A DNA stretch of 12,747 bases from the NCBI RefSeq assembly GCF_003334255.1, contig NZ_QOWU01000081.1; one strand, 5' to 3'. Positions 8,181 to 10,665 of the stretch are shown here, piece by piece. Source of the DNA: Escherichia coli. GTDB lineage: Bacteria > Pseudomonadota > Gammaproteobacteria > Enterobacterales > Enterobacteriaceae. The position numbers and the translations under genes were made by a program. The notes below the pieces were generated by a model, which was given only the letters and a program-made list of their open reading frames with translations, searched no databases and was not told the DNA's origin. Within the stretch, counting starts at the first letter, position 1; each line of letters starts with the position of its first letter.

Positions 8181-8255
8181 ACAATAATATTAGGCTTAGC
8201 CTAATATTATTGTCAATAGGCTATGCCTAATACATCGAGAGTAGGGATTGCCTAA
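8181..8255. promoter_or_regulatory. OR-like operator/promoter region: three operator sites of type TTAGGC-N3-GCCTAA, with a leftward PR-like promoter and a candidate rightward repressor promoter
   Basis: Perfect 33-bp palindrome 8181-8213 (ACAATAATATTAGGCT T AGCCTAATATTATTGT); second site 8216-8230; third, weaker site 8241-8255. Minus-strand -35 TTGACA at 8211-8216 with a -10-like TAATAT at about 8187-8192. Confidence 0.6.
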
Positions 8256-8283
8256 CGCGATGCGCATAGGAGACTATTAAGCA

Positions 8284-8760
8284 ATGCTTAGTGGTAAAGA
8301 CTTAGGCCGAGCGATAGAGCAGGCCATTAACAAAAAAATTGCATCAGGAGCCGTCAAATCAAAGGCGGAAATCGCACGTCATTTCAAAGTCCAACCACCA
8401 TCAATCCATGACTGGATTAAGAAAGGTTCGATAAGTAAAGACAAACTTCCAGAACTATGGCGTTTCTTTTCTGATGTGGTTGGTCCAGAGCATTGGGGGC
8501 TTAACGAATACCCCATACCAACCCCATCCACTTCAGATACAAAAAGTGAACTTTTAGACATAAACAGCCTTTATCAAGCCGCCTCTGATGAAAAAAGAGC
8601 AATTGTGACTTTCCTCTTATCTGGAAATGCTACGGAGCCTGGTTGGGTTGATCATGACGTTCGCGCCTACATTGCCGCAATGGAAATGAAGGTAGCTAAC
8701 TATCTGAAAAATCAAGAATCAAAACGGAAAAGCCAGAACATCACCAAGACAGGAACTTAA
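8284..8760 (+). CDS. Prophage repressor, 158 aa (RacR-like by position and length); no LexA-type S24 autocleavage domain apparent
   Basis: N-terminal HTH-like region (KAEIARHFKVQPPSIHDWIKKG); divergent from the Cro-like gene; flanked on both sides by operator triplets. AGGAG lies 11 nt upstream of the ATG. Confidence 0.75.
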   Translation: MLSGKDLGRAIEQAINKKIASGAVKSKAEIARHFKVQPPSIHDWIKKGSISKDKLPELWRFFSDVVGPEHWGLNEYPIPTPSTSDTKSELLDINSLYQAASDEKRAIVTFLLSGNATEPGWVDHDVRAYIAAMEMKVANYLKNQESKRKSQNITKTGT

Positions 8761-8835
8761 ACTTATATGGTCCGACGGGAAATTCCTAGTTCCCGTTAGT
8801 TAACTCCTACTACCTCTCCCACAAACCATCACCTA

Positions 8836-8897
8836 TTAGGTTGCACCTAAATCATTAGGCATAGCCTATTGACAAACAATTAGGCATTACCTATAGT
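8836..8897 (+). promoter_or_regulatory. OL/PL-like region: three operator sites and a strong rightward sigma70 promoter for the early-left (dicB-type) operon
   Basis: Sites TTAGGT-TGC-ACCTAA (8836-8850), TTAGGC-ATA-GCCTAT (8855-8869, the exact reverse complement of the OR site at 8216-8230) and TTAGGC-ATT-ACCTAT (8880-8894). -35 TTGACA 8869-8874, 17-bp spacer, -10 TATAGT 8892-8897. Confidence 0.6.
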
Positions 8898-9075
8898 TTT
8901 CCCATACCAACCCATCCCATCCCACACAATACAGGGCAATACCTAGAGTTACCCGGCAGTGGTCAGGGATTAAGTAGCCAGCCCGAGGCGTAAGAACATG
9001 ACGGCAGGGTTCAACTTTAACTATGCAGCAGGTTTTTGTTCCGCTCCCCCGGCGTTAAGGGGAAATGAGGTCAGC

Positions 9076-9228
9076 ATGGATACTATCGAGCTTGGCAACA
9101 GCGAATCTCTGGTATGTGGAGTATTCCCCAACCTGGACGGCACGTTTACCGCGATGACGTATACCAGAAGCAAAACGTTTAAAACGGAAGCTGGCGCGCG
9201 TCGCTGGTTAGCAAGAAACTCTGACTGA
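9076..9228 (+). CDS. Small early-left protein, 50 aa (YdaF/YdfA-like by position); the ORF could start at 8998 (76 aa)
   Basis: ATG 9076 preceded by GAGG at 5-nt spacing. Product MDTIELGNSESLVCGVFPNLDGTFTAMTYTRSKTFKTEAGARRWLARNSD. Confidence 0.5.
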   Translation: MDTIELGNSESLVCGVFPNLDGTFTAMTYTRSKTFKTEAGARRWLARNSD

Positions 9229-9302
9229 TGAAGGTTAGTAATTAAAGAGTTCTCCACAGGCGAAGTGGAATACGTTCGCCGGACACGGGTAAGCATTCGG
9301 CA

Positions 9303-9342
9303 TGCTCTTTAACAATCTGGGTATTCCTAACCACAAAGGAAT
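9303..9342 (+). promoter_or_regulatory. rrn-type boxA (TGCTCTTTAACAA) followed by a stem-loop: candidate nut-like or Nus-factor-dependent antitermination site in the early-left transcript
   Basis: Exact 13-nt match to the rrn boxA consensus as I recall it, at 9303-9315; hairpin ATTCC-(10 nt)-GGAAT at 9323-9342, 7 nt downstream; about 400 nt downstream of the PL-like promoter. No N-like protein identified. Confidence 0.4.
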
Positions 9343-9773
9343 CGCATCAATTTGGATTTTGCAGACAGTTTCTCTTGTTGTTCTACGGAGATTCCTATTT
9401 TGATCTGGGTTTTTAAGATTGCGATATCTTTAAGCGACGACCAAATATTATCATCTGTTTTTTCCAGGAGCTTTAACTGCATTTTCAATTCCGAATCGGA
9501 ATATTTTTCTGCATCATCATAAAACTGCAGATATTCTGCGGATTTTCTCATTGCGTTACCTGACTTTTGTCCGAATCCGTAAATCGTTTGAACGGTTGCT
9601 ATCACAACAATGAGAACTCCAGAAACTTCAGGAATAAATCCACCAATGACAGATGAACCGAGGATAATACTCACCACTGAGAAAAGTTTATCGAGACGAC
9701 CAGTCGCTACAGAGAATAGTTGTTCAAGAAAATAACCATATAAAACCCTGTCAAGAATATCATCCCGGTCCAT
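9327..9773 (-). CDS. Two-transmembrane-helix membrane protein, 148 aa, putative superinfection-exclusion protein (SieB-like by position and topology)
   Basis: ATG 9771-9773 preceded by AGGTGA. Hydrophobic segments LFSVVSIILGSSVIGGFIP and VSGVLIVVIATVQTIYGF followed by a helical charged domain. Transcribed opposite to the early-left operon, as sieB is in Rac. The gene looks AT-rich relative to its neighbours. Confidence 0.5.
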   Translation of the reverse strand: MDRDDILDRVLYGYFLEQLFSVATGRLDKLFSVVSIILGSSVIGGFIPEVSGVLIVVIATVQTIYGFGQKSGNAMRKSAEYLQFYDDAEKYSDSELKMQLKLLEKTDDNIWSSLKDIAILKTQIKIGISVEQQEKLSAKSKLMRFLCG

Positions 9774-9832
9774 ATATCATCACCTGCTTGTTTGATTGTT
9801 GCTGTTCCCCCTCTCCTCTGAAGGAGCTGGAG

Positions 9833-10021
9833 ATGGTTTTGGTCGAATGTTTTTCTCAGGTATATGTTTCCTGGTATTCGGAATGTCCGCCCTGTCCGCA
9901 GGCTTACCAGTACCTGAACAATTCTTTTGAACCACCATATAAAACACCTTCCTGTTGTTGGGGATATCCAGATTATACAGATTTCCTGTTATTGGGGAAT
10001 GACGGAAACCACCTCGCCTGA
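9833..10021 (+). CDS. Small Cys-rich protein, 62 aa (5 Cys; Kil/YdfC-position gene); the ORF may start at 9788 (77 aa)
   Basis: ATG 9833 preceded by AAGGAG at 6-nt spacing. Product MVLVECFSQVYVSWYSECPPCPQAYQYLNNSFEPPYKTPSCCWGYPDYTDFLLLGNDGNHLA. Could be spurious. Confidence 0.4.
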   Translation: MVLVECFSQVYVSWYSECPPCPQAYQYLNNSFEPPYKTPSCCWGYPDYTDFLLLGNDGNHLA

Positions 10022-10236
10022 CGTGGTTAAAAGCAGGCACACAACACGAAAGCGCACGGCGAGATTCCTTTGCATATAAGGCTTGTCGTTAAATTTCTTC
10101 GACCGTGCACTTCCGGTTGTGGCAGTCCGCGAAATGGCGCGGCGGTAAGTATGGCTGGGGCTTCCTCCATTGCTCCAGAAAATGCACCGGGTCGTCAGGT
10201 TGACCATACGCTTAAGTGACAGCCCCGCCACAATAC

Positions 10237-10294
10237 CCATGTGTAGTATTTGGTGGCATCAGTTCTACTCCGTGACTGCTCTGCCACCCTTTTT
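10237..10294 (+). ncRNA. dicF: DicF-like small RNA (cell-division inhibitory sRNA of the dicB operon)
   Basis: TTTGGTGGCATCAGTTCTACTCCGTGACTGCTCTGCCACCC followed by TTTTT matches my recollection of E. coli DicF (TTTGGCGGTATCAGTTTTACTCCGTGACTGCTCTGCCGCCC) with 4 substitutions, two of them compensatory in the terminator stem (GGTGGCA/TGCCACC at 10252-10258 and 10282-10288). The 5'-most ~12 nt differ. Immediately upstream of dicB. Confidence 0.8.
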
Positions 10295-10297
10295 AAA

Positions 10298-10459
10298 GTG
10301 AATTTTGTGATGCGGTGAATGCGGCTATGCGCACGCGGAACAGTTAAAACCGTAAAGTGGTCTTTTACGGGGCGTAACGGGCATCCTTCTGTATTCCGGC
10401 GTTAATTGTTAACTGGTTAACGTCACCTGGAGGCACCAGGCACCGCATCACAAAATTCA
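10298..10459 (+). repeat. 19-bp perfect inverted repeat (10298-10316 and 10441-10459) enclosing 124 bp between dicF and dicB; likely a long-range RNA stem serving as a processing site
   Basis: TGAATTTTGTGATGCGGTG ... CACCGCATCACAAAATTCA. An internal hairpin CCGTAAA-GTGGTCT-TTTACGG lies at about 10350-10370. Confidence 0.7.
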
Positions 10460-10476
10460 TTGTTGAGGACGCGATA

Positions 10477-10665
10477 ATGGAAACGTTATTACCAAACGTT
10501 AATACGTCTGAAGGTTGTTTTGATATTGGTGTTCTGCTCAGTAACCGGGAGTTTACGGAAGATGCCATTAAGATGAGAAAATATGAACCTTATCTTCTCA
10601 ATGATAATTCCATACTTTCCAGAATTGCCCTTCTTGAACTTGGTATTATCGGAGAACAGCAGTGA
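10477..10665 (+). CDS. dicB: DicB-like cell-division inhibitor (MinC-activating), 62 aa
   Basis: N-terminus METLLPNVNTSEGCFDIGVLLSNREFTEDAI matches my recollection of Qin DicB (MKTLLPNVNTSEGCFEIGV...FTEDAI). GAGGA ribosome-binding site at 7-nt spacing. Follows dicF. Confidence 0.85.
   Translation: METLLPNVNTSEGCFDIGVLLSNREFTEDAIKMRKYEPYLLNDNSILSRIALLELGIIGEQQ

What the first reader, a model, noticed from the sequence alone, without database searches (positions are those of the whole stretch)
9303..9342. rrn-type boxA plus hairpin in the early-left transcript with no N-like protein in view
TGCTCTTTAACAA at 9303-9315 matches the ribosomal-operon boxA consensus as I recall it, followed after 7 nt by a stem-loop (ATTCC, 10-nt loop, GGAAT). 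This resembles a nut-site layout about 400 nt downstream of the PL-like promoter. No N-like antiterminator is apparent in the window, so host Nus factors may be recruited directly as in rrn antitermination, or the N-type gene is diverged or elsewhere. The hairpin overlaps the 3' end of the opposite-strand sieB-like gene.
Basis: partly seen in the sequence, partly recalled or inferred. Interest (0 to 1): 0.45.

Follow-up and report, generated by a model that had tools for sequence, protein, structure and literature searches.

The report
rRNA-type BoxA module in prophage
A perfect copy of the ribosomal-operon BoxA signal lies in the early-left transcript of an E. coli prophage, not as a lambda-style N/nut site but as part of a conserved rRNA-like module (hairpin, BoxA, long-range stem) that brackets a backwards-facing accessory gene and probably lets host Nus factors carry transcription through it.

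Summary
The 13-mer TGCTCTTTAACAA is at 9303-9315 on the strand transcribed from the PL-like promoter. About 0.0005 exact copies are expected by chance. The window is a RacR-immunity lambdoid prophage next to ompW, and its PL operon is a dicBF operon.

There is also no N-like ORF and no second, rightward nut site. A lambda-type nut site is therefore not supported.

BoxA is instead one part of a conserved module:
- A stem-loop ends 1 nt before BoxA and is paired in all 13 variants.
- BoxA itself is predicted unpaired.
- AATCTGG(G/A)TAT.CC follows BoxA and is the 5' arm of a 19-22 bp inverted repeat. The 3' arm lies at 9953-9974.

The two arms bracket an antisense accessory gene (9327-9773). BoxA and this cassette always occur together. 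The layout copies the E. coli rrn 16S-23S spacer, where BoxA is followed by the 23S leader-trailer helix; 19 of 20 bases are identical.

Best reading: this is N-independent, Nus-factor (rrn-type) antitermination through an untranslated antisense stretch, coupled to a long-range RNA helix. No experiment supports this yet. The element is unannotated in at least 408 of 5426 complete E. coli genomes, including O157:H7.

The parts
8869..8897 (+). PL-like sigma-70 promoter (TTGACA-17-TATAGT) among ATTAGGC-type operator repeats, downstream of racR (8284-8760)
   Evidence: 11 of 12 matches; annotation.
8998..9228 (+). First PL ORF (ydaG/ydaF-like, DUF1391; RefSeq annotates 9076-9228). It is not N-like.
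   Evidence: phrog_751 and phrog_37620, unknown function.
9253..9269 (+). Hairpin 1 (UCCAC-7 nt-GUGGA). It is also present in dicBF operons that lack the cassette.
   Evidence: 74% of cells paired.
9278..9301 (+). Hairpin 2, boxB-like by position: GCCGGA-12 nt loop-UUCGGC, ending 1 nt before BoxA. It has the same 6-bp stem and 12-nt loop as the rrnB leader hairpin.
   Evidence: 100% of cells paired in 13 distinct sequences, two G-C to G-U changes, variable loop.
9303..9315 (+). BoxA, TGCTCTTTAACAA, identical to the rrn leader BoxA and predicted unpaired in the 806-nt fold
9314..9335 (+). 5' arm of the long-range inverted repeat (AATCTGGGTATTCCTAACCACA)
9323..9342 (+). It overlaps the 5' arm and is not conserved, so it is probably incidental.
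9327..9773 (-). Antisense accessory gene: 148 aa, two hydrophobic segments that look like transmembrane helices, phrog_6315. It sits where lambda and Rac carry sieB.
9953..9974 (+). 3' arm of the long-range inverted repeat (TGTTGTTGGGGATATCCAGATT)
9303..10027 (.). Cassette present here but absent from K-12 Qin-type dicBF operons: BoxA, 5' arm, antisense gene with its upstream region, 3' arm and about 50 nt more
10039..10123 (+). Homolog of the local hairpin that RNase III cuts in K-12 to make the 190-nt DicF precursor
10238..10289 (+). DicF sRNA. dicB (10477-10665), DUF1482 and an exonuclease gene that runs off the window's end follow it; in the identical genome stretch (L001) excisionase and integrase genes come next, outside the window. 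All are downstream beneficiaries of read-through.
   Evidence: 62 bits against a gathering score of 48.

Best explanation
The 13-mer is a genuine rrn-type BoxA on the PL (dicBF-operon) transcript of an N-less lambdoid prophage. It is the centre of a conserved cis-module that mimics the rRNA operon spacer. The module consists of a stem-loop, a single-stranded BoxA, and directly after BoxA the 5' strand of a 19-22 bp long-range helix. The 3' strand of that helix lies about 620 nt downstream. The module brackets an accessory gene that faces against PL transcription.

Proposed mechanism, all inferred:
1. When the RacR repressor is relieved, RNA polymerase transcribes BoxA.
2. NusB-S10 bind BoxA and, with NusA, NusG and SuhB, convert the polymerase into an rrn-like, Rho-resistant complex.
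3. That complex crosses about 1.2 kb of untranslated RNA (9229-10476), most of it antisense to the accessory gene.
4. Polymerase thereby reaches dicF, dicB, the exonuclease gene, xis and int.
5. As proposed for rRNA, BoxA held on the polymerase keeps the 5' arm close until the 3' arm emerges. The helix then closes, loops out the antisense RNA and offers an RNase III-type substrate.

Shown here: sequence identity to rrn BoxA, orientation, conservation, strict co-occurrence with the cassette, the inverted repeat and its predicted pairing, and the absence of N, boxB and nutR. Inferred: Nus binding, Rho resistance, helix formation in vivo and cleavage.
For: - The BoxA is an exact match to rrn BoxA, is unique in the window and is far beyond chance.
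- It lies in sense orientation 400 nt after the PL-like promoter, in untranslated RNA.
- In 13 diverged relatives BoxA varies only at the two degenerate positions of the experimentally derived consensus GYTCTTTAANA (PMC5725501), while the whole alignment averages 74% column identity.
- In dicBF-type loci, 24 of 24 distinct BoxA-positive loci carry an antisense ORF beginning 27-48 nt after the hairpin. None of 44 BoxA-negative loci has the cassette.
- A search by the 3' arm alone found BoxA, or a one-mismatch BoxA, directly abutting the 5' arm in about 75 of 77 new loci.
- The same order occurs in phages with unrelated LexA-type repressors and with two unrelated antisense gene families, phrog_6315 and phrog_1244: repressor, PL, hairpin, BoxA, arm, antisense gene, arm.
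- The helix has 19 pairs with 91% of cells paired in 19 distinct sequences. There is one compensatory change, and seven pairs change on one side only, to G-U on the + strand.
- Duplex energy is -32.6 kcal/mol for + strand RNA against -27.3 for - strand RNA.
- Both the MFE and the centroid fold of the 806-nt RNA contain hairpin 2, an unpaired BoxA and the long-range helix.
- The rrnB spacer reads TGCTCTTTAAAAATCTGGAT. The bases after its BoxA pair with the 23S trailer, which ends CAGAUU.
- Lytic K1E-like phages and another contig show BoxA followed by different arms with exact downstream complements, including an A-U to G-C compensatory change. Only 0.19% of control positions have a 12-nt or longer complement.
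- T7 carries CGCTCTTTAACAATCTGG in its host-transcribed early leader and has no N.
- From the literature: BoxA prevents Rho termination of long untranslated CRISPR transcripts (PMC7665894). kilR, at the equivalent place in the BoxA-less Rac prophage, is silenced through NusG/Rho (PMC5793797). RNase III processes dicBF RNA (PMC10448788). Leader-trailer helices and the rrn antitermination complex are described in PMC10250234.
Against: - There is no experimental evidence for this element: no Nus binding, Rho read-through or RNA-end data.
- The inverted repeat would also be kept by DNA-level constraints. Its arms are so conserved that true covariation is a single pair, and control (a) is not significant.
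- The excess of G-U over A-C is strong by cells (70 against 15) but weak by distinct event types (10 against 7).
- C-over-G skew of the untranslated stretch is only moderate, at 1.2-1.7.
- rrn-type complexes are poor at intrinsic terminators, and two weak terminator-like sites and the DicF terminator lie downstream.
- Cassette-less dicBF operons manage without BoxA.
- The outer helix I2 is not supported outside the window's own class.
Confidence: 0.6

Rival explanations
1. It is a lambda-type nutL. BoxA plus the downstream hairpin as boxB would be used by an N-like protein that is too diverged to recognise or is encoded elsewhere, for example on another prophage.
For: BoxA followed by a hairpin 7 nt later resembles the nut layout. 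The position in the PL operon is right. The same 18-mer does occur in genuine N-type nut sites.
Against: The hairpin is paired in only 50% of cells across relatives and is absent in O157-type copies that keep BoxA exactly. No ORF with an arginine-rich motif and no antiterminator family was found among PL-side ORFs. There is no second BoxA/nutR in the window or in 20 kb. N-type loci from the same search have boxB, an N ORF (NARERRRIKRENERK) and an opposite-strand BoxA 1 kb away.
Confidence: 0.06
2. The conserved sequences are DNA-level features of a mobile accessory-gene cassette. They would be terminal inverted repeats, a recombination joint, or paired binding sites for a dimeric protein on the GGATATCC palindrome. 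BoxA would be a hitch-hiking or rrn-derived boundary sequence with little function of its own.
For: The cassette is an indel relative to K-12-type operons, with sharp boundaries at 9302/9303 and about 10027. The same flanks enclose two unrelated gene families in two operon contexts. The arms contain an 8-bp palindrome. Covariation is minimal. The 3' arm overlaps a possible -10 element (TATAAT) of the antisense gene (read from the sequence).
Against: BoxA is kept to the functional consensus even where the arms and flanks vary. No target-site duplication is visible, and the gene has the same orientation in every one of the distinct loci examined. BoxA followed by a long-range complement recurs with unrelated arm sequences in lytic phages, with a compensatory change, and in rrn itself. 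Persistent mismatches in the repeat are G-U on the BoxA strand.
Confidence: 0.17
3. The element serves the antisense gene's own mRNA. The reverse complement of BoxA and the hairpins would form its 3' UTR and terminator, and the inverted repeat would pair the mRNA's 5' and 3' ends to stabilise it.
For: In class B loci, the hairpin abutting BoxA is a clear intrinsic terminator for the antisense gene when read on the - strand. The - strand RNA is also predicted to form the long-range helix.
Against: The exact rrn BoxA sequence has no known function in reverse complement, yet it is conserved in sense orientation in contexts with no antisense gene, such as T7, K1E-like phages and N-type nut sites. 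In the window, the two arm differences are A-C mismatches on the - strand. A likely -10 element places the mRNA start inside the arm. In the window's own class the hairpins have no U-tract and pre-exist in cassette-less operons.
Confidence: 0.1
4. BoxA acts negatively, as in suhB. Nus factors bound at BoxA would block translation of an adjacent ORF and promote Rho termination, attenuating the toxic dicBF genes.
For: BoxA-mediated repression exists for suhB (PMC5725501). An ATG at 9302 opens a 33-codon ORF across BoxA. dicB and dicF are toxic (PMC10448788).
Against: That ORF has no convincing ribosome-binding site. It is 9 codons long in O157-type copies and absent in class B. BoxA is tied to the insertion of extra untranslated RNA, which argues for compensation rather than attenuation.
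Confidence: 0.05

Closest known systems
E. coli rrn operon antitermination signals, especially the 16S-23S spacer BoxA with the 23S leader-trailer (RNase III) helix
   Same: The BoxA is identical to the leader BoxA in 13 of 13 bases. TGCTCTTTAACAATCTGGAT, the form of this element carried by related copies, matches the spacer TGCTCTTTAAAAATCTGGAT in 19 of 20 bases; the window's own copy has G instead of A at 9321 (TCTGGGT), so it matches 18 of 20. A stem-loop ends 1-3 nt upstream. The bases right after BoxA form the 5' strand of a long-range helix whose 3' strand ends CAGAUU. No phage protein is needed (PMC10250234).
   Different: The bracketed RNA is about 620 nt of antisense-to-mRNA sequence in a phage early operon, not an rRNA. 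No boxC (UGUGUGGG) was seen. The helix is 19-22 bp, against 27 bp or more in rrn. Function is untested.
Lambda-type nut sites with N protein (lambda, P22, phage 21, mEp021 Gp17)
   Same: BoxA lies on the PL transcript of a lambdoid phage, and Nus factors are expected to be involved. The antisense exclusion-gene slot sits where lambda carries sieB, tail-to-tail with N.
   Different: There is no conserved boxB, no N and no nutR. BoxA follows the first ORF rather than preceding N. The BoxA is the full rrn consensus, not lambda's weaker CGCTCTTA (the lambda sequence is from my own knowledge).
BoxA upstream of CRISPR arrays (Salmonella, Vibrio; PMC7665894)
   Same: A stand-alone BoxA at the entry to a long untranslated transcript protects it from premature Rho termination, without a dedicated protein.
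   Different: The element here is in a prophage operon, is coupled to an inverted repeat, and precedes RNA antisense to a protein-coding gene.
BoxA in host-transcribed early leaders of T7 and K1E/SP6-like lytic phages
   Same: These are N-independent phage BoxAs with the same AATCTGG extension. They are followed by RNase III-type helices, local in T7 and gene-bracketing in K1E-like phages.
   Different: Those helices bracket small genes in the sense orientation, in lytic phages. Here the bracketed gene is antisense, in a temperate phage PL operon. As far as I know the function of the T7 BoxA is not established.
[quoted passage not shown]
   Same: It matches the same consensus and shows Nus-factor use outside rRNA.
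   Different: There BoxA represses translation and promotes Rho termination. Here no adjacent translated ORF is conserved.

Membership tests
Lambda-type nut site (N-utilisation) | BoxA on the early transcript | tested here: met
Lambda-type nut site (N-utilisation) | A conserved boxB stem-loop a few nt 3' of BoxA | tested here: not met
It is absent in O157-type copies.
Lambda-type nut site (N-utilisation) | A cognate N-like protein with an arginine-rich motif encoded in the PL operon | tested here: not met
   ORF translations and PHROG scans found none. The positive control, locus L012, has such an ORF.
Lambda-type nut site (N-utilisation) | A partner nutR downstream of cro on the opposite strand | tested here: not met
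   No second GYTCTTTAANA in the window or in 20 kb. N-type loci have one about 1 kb away.
rrn-type (Nus-factor, N-independent) BoxA antitermination element | A match to the functional BoxA consensus GYTCTTTAANA | tested here: met
   13 of 13 bases identical to the rrnB leader. Variants in relatives stay within the consensus.
rrn-type (Nus-factor, N-independent) BoxA antitermination element | Lies in transcribed, untranslated RNA ahead of a long untranslated stretch | tested here: met
   BoxA is 75 nt after the stop at 9228. No annotated sense ORF follows until dicB at 10477. Transcription itself is inferred from the promoter.
rrn-type (Nus-factor, N-independent) BoxA antitermination element | A stem-loop (boxB position) just upstream of BoxA | tested here: met
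   Hairpin 9278-9301 is 100% paired in 13 sequences, with the same geometry as rrnB. Across contexts, 18 of 31 flank classes have a hairpin ending within 3 nt, against 28% of controls. boxB is dispensable in rrn (own knowledge), so this feature is supportive only.
rrn-type (Nus-factor, N-independent) BoxA antitermination element | A boxC (GU-rich) element downstream | tested here: not met
   No UGUGUGGG-like sequence lies in 9316-9400. The rrn spacer BoxA context, which this element resembles most, also lacks the leader-type boxC.
rrn-type (Nus-factor, N-independent) BoxA antitermination element | NusB-S10 binding, SuhB occupancy and BoxA-dependent resistance to Rho | not testable with these tools
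   This needs ChIP, reporter assays with bicyclomycin, and nus mutants.
Leader-trailer (RNase III) helix of the rrn type | Complementary sequences flanking the bracketed RNA, with the 5' strand adjacent to BoxA | tested here: met
   Arms 9314-9335 and 9953-9974. 91% of cells are paired over 19 pairs in 19 sequences. The helix is present in both the MFE and the centroid fold.
Leader-trailer (RNase III) helix of the rrn type | Covariation showing selection on pairing at the RNA level | tested here: inconclusive
   There is one compensatory pair and seven one-sided G-U changes, but the shuffle control is not significant. G-U against A-C is 70:15 by cells but 10:7 by event type. Clear compensation is seen only in the analogous K1E-like helices.
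Leader-trailer (RNase III) helix of the rrn type | Cleavage by RNase III in vivo | not testable with these tools
   RNase III is known to cut the dicBF transcript at a different, local hairpin in K-12 (PMC10448788).
SieB superinfection-exclusion protein (for the antisense gene) | Sequence homology to SieB of Rac, lambda or P22 | tested here: not met
   No BLASTP alignment to Rac SieB. No Pfam, PADLOC or NCBIfam hit. Only the position and orientation match.

The most novel reading that the evidence does not exclude
Temperate and lytic enterobacterial phages share an rRNA-mimicking RNA grammar: a stem-loop, a consensus BoxA, and immediately after it the 5' strand of a long-range helix. Under this reading, the host Nus complex loaded at BoxA both shields the transcript from Rho and chaperones closure of the helix, as proposed for pre-rRNA. 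In N-less lambdoid prophages this grammar has been built into a portable cassette. The cassette lets an exclusion or defence gene sit backwards inside the PL operon without polarity, and the antisense RNA is looped out and excised by RNase III.
Probability: 0.35. Interest if true: 0.8.

Novelty: new variant of a known kind. Interest (0 to 1): 0.62.

Why it matters
Lambdoid early antitermination is taught as needing N (or, in HK022, put RNA). Nus-factor BoxA antitermination without a phage protein is documented for rRNA and CRISPR arrays.

If this module works as proposed, a large group of N-less lambdoid prophages simply borrows the ribosomal system. The group is found in at least 7.5% of complete E. 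coli genomes, including the O157:H7 lineage.

Three consequences would follow:
- Accessory or defence genes could be inserted backwards into an essential operon without killing downstream expression of dicF, dicB, recombination and excision genes.
- It would provide a small, non-essential and genetically tractable model for the debated RNA-chaperone (loop-closing) role of the rrn antitermination complex.
- It would tie prophage induction to NusB, S10 and SuhB availability, and so to growth rate.

Tried and rejected
- **N-like protein.** I translated and scanned every + strand ORF of 30 aa or more between PL and dicB and found nothing N-like.
- **Second nut site.** Searches with up to 3 mismatches and with the consensus found none.
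- **SieB homology of the antisense protein.** Rejected.
- **BoxA in K-12 Qin and Rac.** Absent.
- **Rho-utilisation signal by C/G skew.** Only moderate and not diagnostic.
- **Outer helix I2 (9257-9268 with 10009-10020).** It appears in the window's fold, but duplex z-scores are weak (-1 to -3) in this class and about 0 in class B. I do not claim it.
- **G-U against A-C asymmetry as proof of the RNA strand.** Suggestive only.
- **Hairpin-pattern scan of viral contigs.** Many hits were chance matches and had to be filtered by context.
- **Five apparent cases of a cassette without BoxA.** These were spurious ORFs opposite dicB.
- **Transposon-like target duplications at the arms.** None was seen on inspection.
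- **Literature.** Searches for BoxA with dicB, prophage, moron or T7 found no description of this element.

Full report
**What the window is.** The stretch 8200-10400 of the window is 100% identical to prophages in several complete E. coli genomes. The annotated region of one of them, which the rest of the window follows in gene order, gives this layout:
- On the - strand is an early-right operon: a ydaS-like cro analogue, ydaT, replication genes, hokD and, further on, a Q-type antiterminator.
- racR lies at 8284-8760 on the + strand.
- A PL-like promoter, TTGACA-17-TATAGT, lies at 8869-8897.
- Then follow a DUF1391 (ydaF/ydfA-like) ORF ending at 9228 and an opposite-strand hypothetical gene at 9327-9773.
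- DicF lies at 10238-10289 (Rfam 62 bits).
- dicB, a DUF1482 gene and an exonuclease gene that runs off the window's end follow; in the annotated genome stretch (L001) excisionase, integrase and then ompW come next.

**The observation.** TGCTCTTTAACAA is at 9303-9315. It is the only exact copy and the only match to the functional consensus GYTCTTTAANA in the window and in 20 kb of the identical genome. Base composition predicts 0.00047 exact copies per window. In 1.2 Mb of viral contigs fetched independently of BoxA there were none. The 13-mer is identical to the rrnB leader BoxA.

**It is not a lambda-type nut site.** Thirteen distinct relatives of this locus were aligned.
- BoxA changes only at the two degenerate positions of GYTCTTTAANA (the consensus comes from PMC5725501).
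- O157:H7-type copies keep BoxA exactly but have a different downstream sequence.
- No + strand ORF between PL and dicB has an arginine-rich motif or hits an antiterminator family.
- No BoxA lies downstream of the cro analogue.

As a control, other phage contigs recovered with the same 18-mer are classical N systems. They have BoxA, 8 nt, then GCCGC-UGGAAGU-GCGGC, followed by a 96-aa ORF with NARERRRIKRENERK and an opposite-strand BoxA about 1 kb away.

**BoxA travels with an antisense cassette.**
- Homology between this window and ordinary dicBF operons (over 3000 E. coli genomes) stops at 9302, one base before BoxA. It resumes near 10028.
- K-12 Qin and Rac have no BoxA.
- Among distinct dicBF-type loci, 24 of 24 with BoxA carry an antisense ORF beginning 27-48 nt after the hairpin. 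None of 44 without BoxA carries the cassette. Five apparent exceptions were spurious ORFs opposite dicB.
- The antisense protein matches phrog_6315 (unknown function) and has two hydrophobic segments that look like transmembrane helices. It has no detectable similarity to SieB.
- It does sit where lambda and Rac carry sieB, antisense to PL.
- In other phages with LexA-type repressors the same order recurs: repressor, PL, hairpin, BoxA, antisense gene. There BoxA is about 100 nt from the predicted start.
- The gene in the slot belongs to either of two unrelated families, phrog_6315 or phrog_1244.

**The rRNA-like structure around BoxA.**
- Upstream, GCCGGA-12 nt-UUCGGC (9278-9301) ends one base before BoxA. 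It is paired in 100% of cells across the 13 variants, with a variable loop. The rrnB leader has GCCGCU-12 nt-AGCGGC two bases before its BoxA.
- Downstream, the sequence beginning with BoxA's last two bases (9314-9335) is the reverse complement of 9953-9974, with 22 nt at 82%.
- Across 19 distinct sequences from both operon contexts, 19 pairs are 91% paired. There is one compensatory change, and seven pairs change on one side only, to G-U on the + strand.
- The duplex is 5 kcal/mol better as + strand RNA than as - strand RNA.
- Both the MFE and the centroid structure of the 806-nt + strand RNA show hairpin 2, an unpaired BoxA and this long-range helix.
- A search by the 3' arm alone recovered 77 further usable loci. 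Of these, 48 had a consensus BoxA plus AATCTGG, 19 had a consensus BoxA with a variant arm, about 8 had a one-mismatch BoxA and 1-2 had neither.

**The rrn spacer is the closest match.** The rrnB 16S-23S spacer reads hairpin, TAT, then TTGCTCTTTAAAAATCTGGATCAAGCUGAAAAUU. The bases after BoxA pair with the 23S trailer AGAUUUUCAGCCUGAUACAGAUU, which is the base of the 23S leader-trailer helix (PMC10250234). The phage element TGCTCTTTAACAATCTGGAT, as carried by related copies (the window's own copy reads TCTGGGT at 9316-9322), is 19 of 20 identical to the spacer BoxA region and has the same architecture, including a 3' strand ending CAGAUU.

**The same grammar occurs elsewhere.**
- The 18-mer occurs in at least 120 IMG/VR contigs, in at least 20 unrelated flank contexts.
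- T7 has CGCTCTTTAACAATCTGG between promoter A3 and gene 0.3.
- K1E/SP6-like phages have 3-5 tandem BoxAs in their early region.
- In these phages, and in another contig, the bases after BoxA have exact complements of 12-17 nt some 190-330 nt downstream, bracketing a small gene.
- Only 0.19% of control positions have a complement of 12 nt or more.
- One arm pair shows an A-U to G-C compensatory change between relatives.
- A hairpin ending within 3 nt of BoxA is enriched: 18 of 31 flank classes against 28% of controls. The classes are not all independent.

**Mechanism (inferred).** BoxA alone recruits NusB-S10 and, with NusA, NusG and SuhB, gives Rho-resistant transcription of long untranslated RNAs such as rRNA and CRISPR arrays (PMC7665894, PMC4807359). 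In this window the PL transcript has no annotated sense ORF from 9229 to 10476. Most of that stretch is antisense to the accessory gene, with moderate C-over-G skew. In the BoxA-less Rac prophage, kilR occupies the equivalent position and is silenced through NusG/Rho (PMC5793797). I therefore propose that BoxA makes the cassette non-polar, so that dicF, dicB, the exonuclease gene, xis and int are expressed after derepression. I also propose that the tethered BoxA promotes closure of the bracket helix, which may be cut by RNase III. RNase III already processes dicBF RNA at a nearby local hairpin, whose homolog here lies at 10039-10123 (PMC10448788).

**Caveats.**
- Nothing here is experimental.
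- The inverted repeat could be a DNA-level feature, such as cassette ends or paired protein sites on the GGATATCC palindrome. Covariation within this family is too thin to exclude that.
- The helix could also serve the antisense mRNA.
- rrn-type complexes are weak against intrinsic terminators, and the DicF terminator lies ahead.

**Prevalence and novelty.**
- A 33-nt probe spanning the end of hairpin 2, BoxA and the arm hits 408 of 5426 complete E. coli genomes, including O157:H7 and O55:H7 lineages. No annotated feature underlies the match in the 30 records listed.
- Full-text searches found no description of it.
- It is a new variant of known BoxA/Nus antitermination: N-independent, in a lambdoid PL operon, and fused to an rrn-spacer-like bracket helix around an antisense accessory gene.

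Noticed in passing
window 3373-3548 (-) and 3223-3435 (-): A complete hok/sok-type toxin-antitoxin locus lies inside the prophage's early-right operon. The sok RNA scores 120.5 bits against a gathering score of 59, and hokD is annotated beside it.
   Followed up: no
window 10238-10289 (+): This DicF copy passes the Rfam threshold, but its 5' part (CAUGUGUAGUAUUUGG) differs from K-12 DicF (UUUCUGGUGACGUUUGG). It may therefore have a different target-pairing seed.
   Followed up: no
window 10039-10123 (+): This is the homolog of the local hairpin that RNase III cuts in K-12 to make the 190-nt DicF precursor. About 100 nt here is also conserved in Klebsiella phages, Shigella phage SfIV and class B loci.
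   Followed up: partly
window 9948-9963 and 9984-9999 (+): A direct repeat TTCCTGTTGTTGGGGA / TTCCTGTTATTGGGGA spans the 3' arm and the sequence just beyond it. The second copy could be an alternative pairing partner or a duplicated site.
   Followed up: no
window 8998-9228 (+): The 76-aa ORF matches both phrog_37620 (ydaG-like, aa 1-45) and phrog_751 (DUF1391, aa 9-76). RefSeq annotates only the 50-aa C-terminal part, so the gene may be longer than annotated.
   Followed up: partly
window 8181-8213: A perfect 15-bp-arm palindrome, ACAATAATATTAGGC-TAA-GCCTAATATTATTGT, lies between the ydaS-like gene and racR. It overlaps the PR-like promoter and is probably the main operator. The scan lists it as terminator-like.
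   Followed up: no
window 10287-10509 (+): A sub-threshold match to the sRNA family STnc100 (36.8 bits against 47) covers the dicF-dicB spacer.
   Followed up: no
L086 4300-6700; L334, L335 and L336 (K1E/SP6-like phages): These early regions carry 3-5 tandem consensus BoxAs. Each is followed by an AATCTGG-type arm whose complement lies after the next small gene. One arm pair shows a compensatory A-U to G-C change between relatives.
   Followed up: partly
L146 (IMG/VR 651053022_000007) about 2250-2700: A dicBF-type upstream region runs directly into the 3' end of 16S rRNA and an ITS with tRNA-Ile and tRNA-Ala. This is either an assembly chimera or a real prophage-rrn junction.
   Followed up: no
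window 3616-4302 (-): A QueH-like epoxyqueuosine reductase gene is carried in the prophage early-right region.
   Followed up: no
L044 8626-8655 and other class B loci: A short ORF (ATGAAGATGGGGATGATTCG..TAA, about 9 codons) lies between the PL-like promoter and the hairpin-BoxA. It may be a leader peptide or just conserved non-coding sequence.
   Followed up: no
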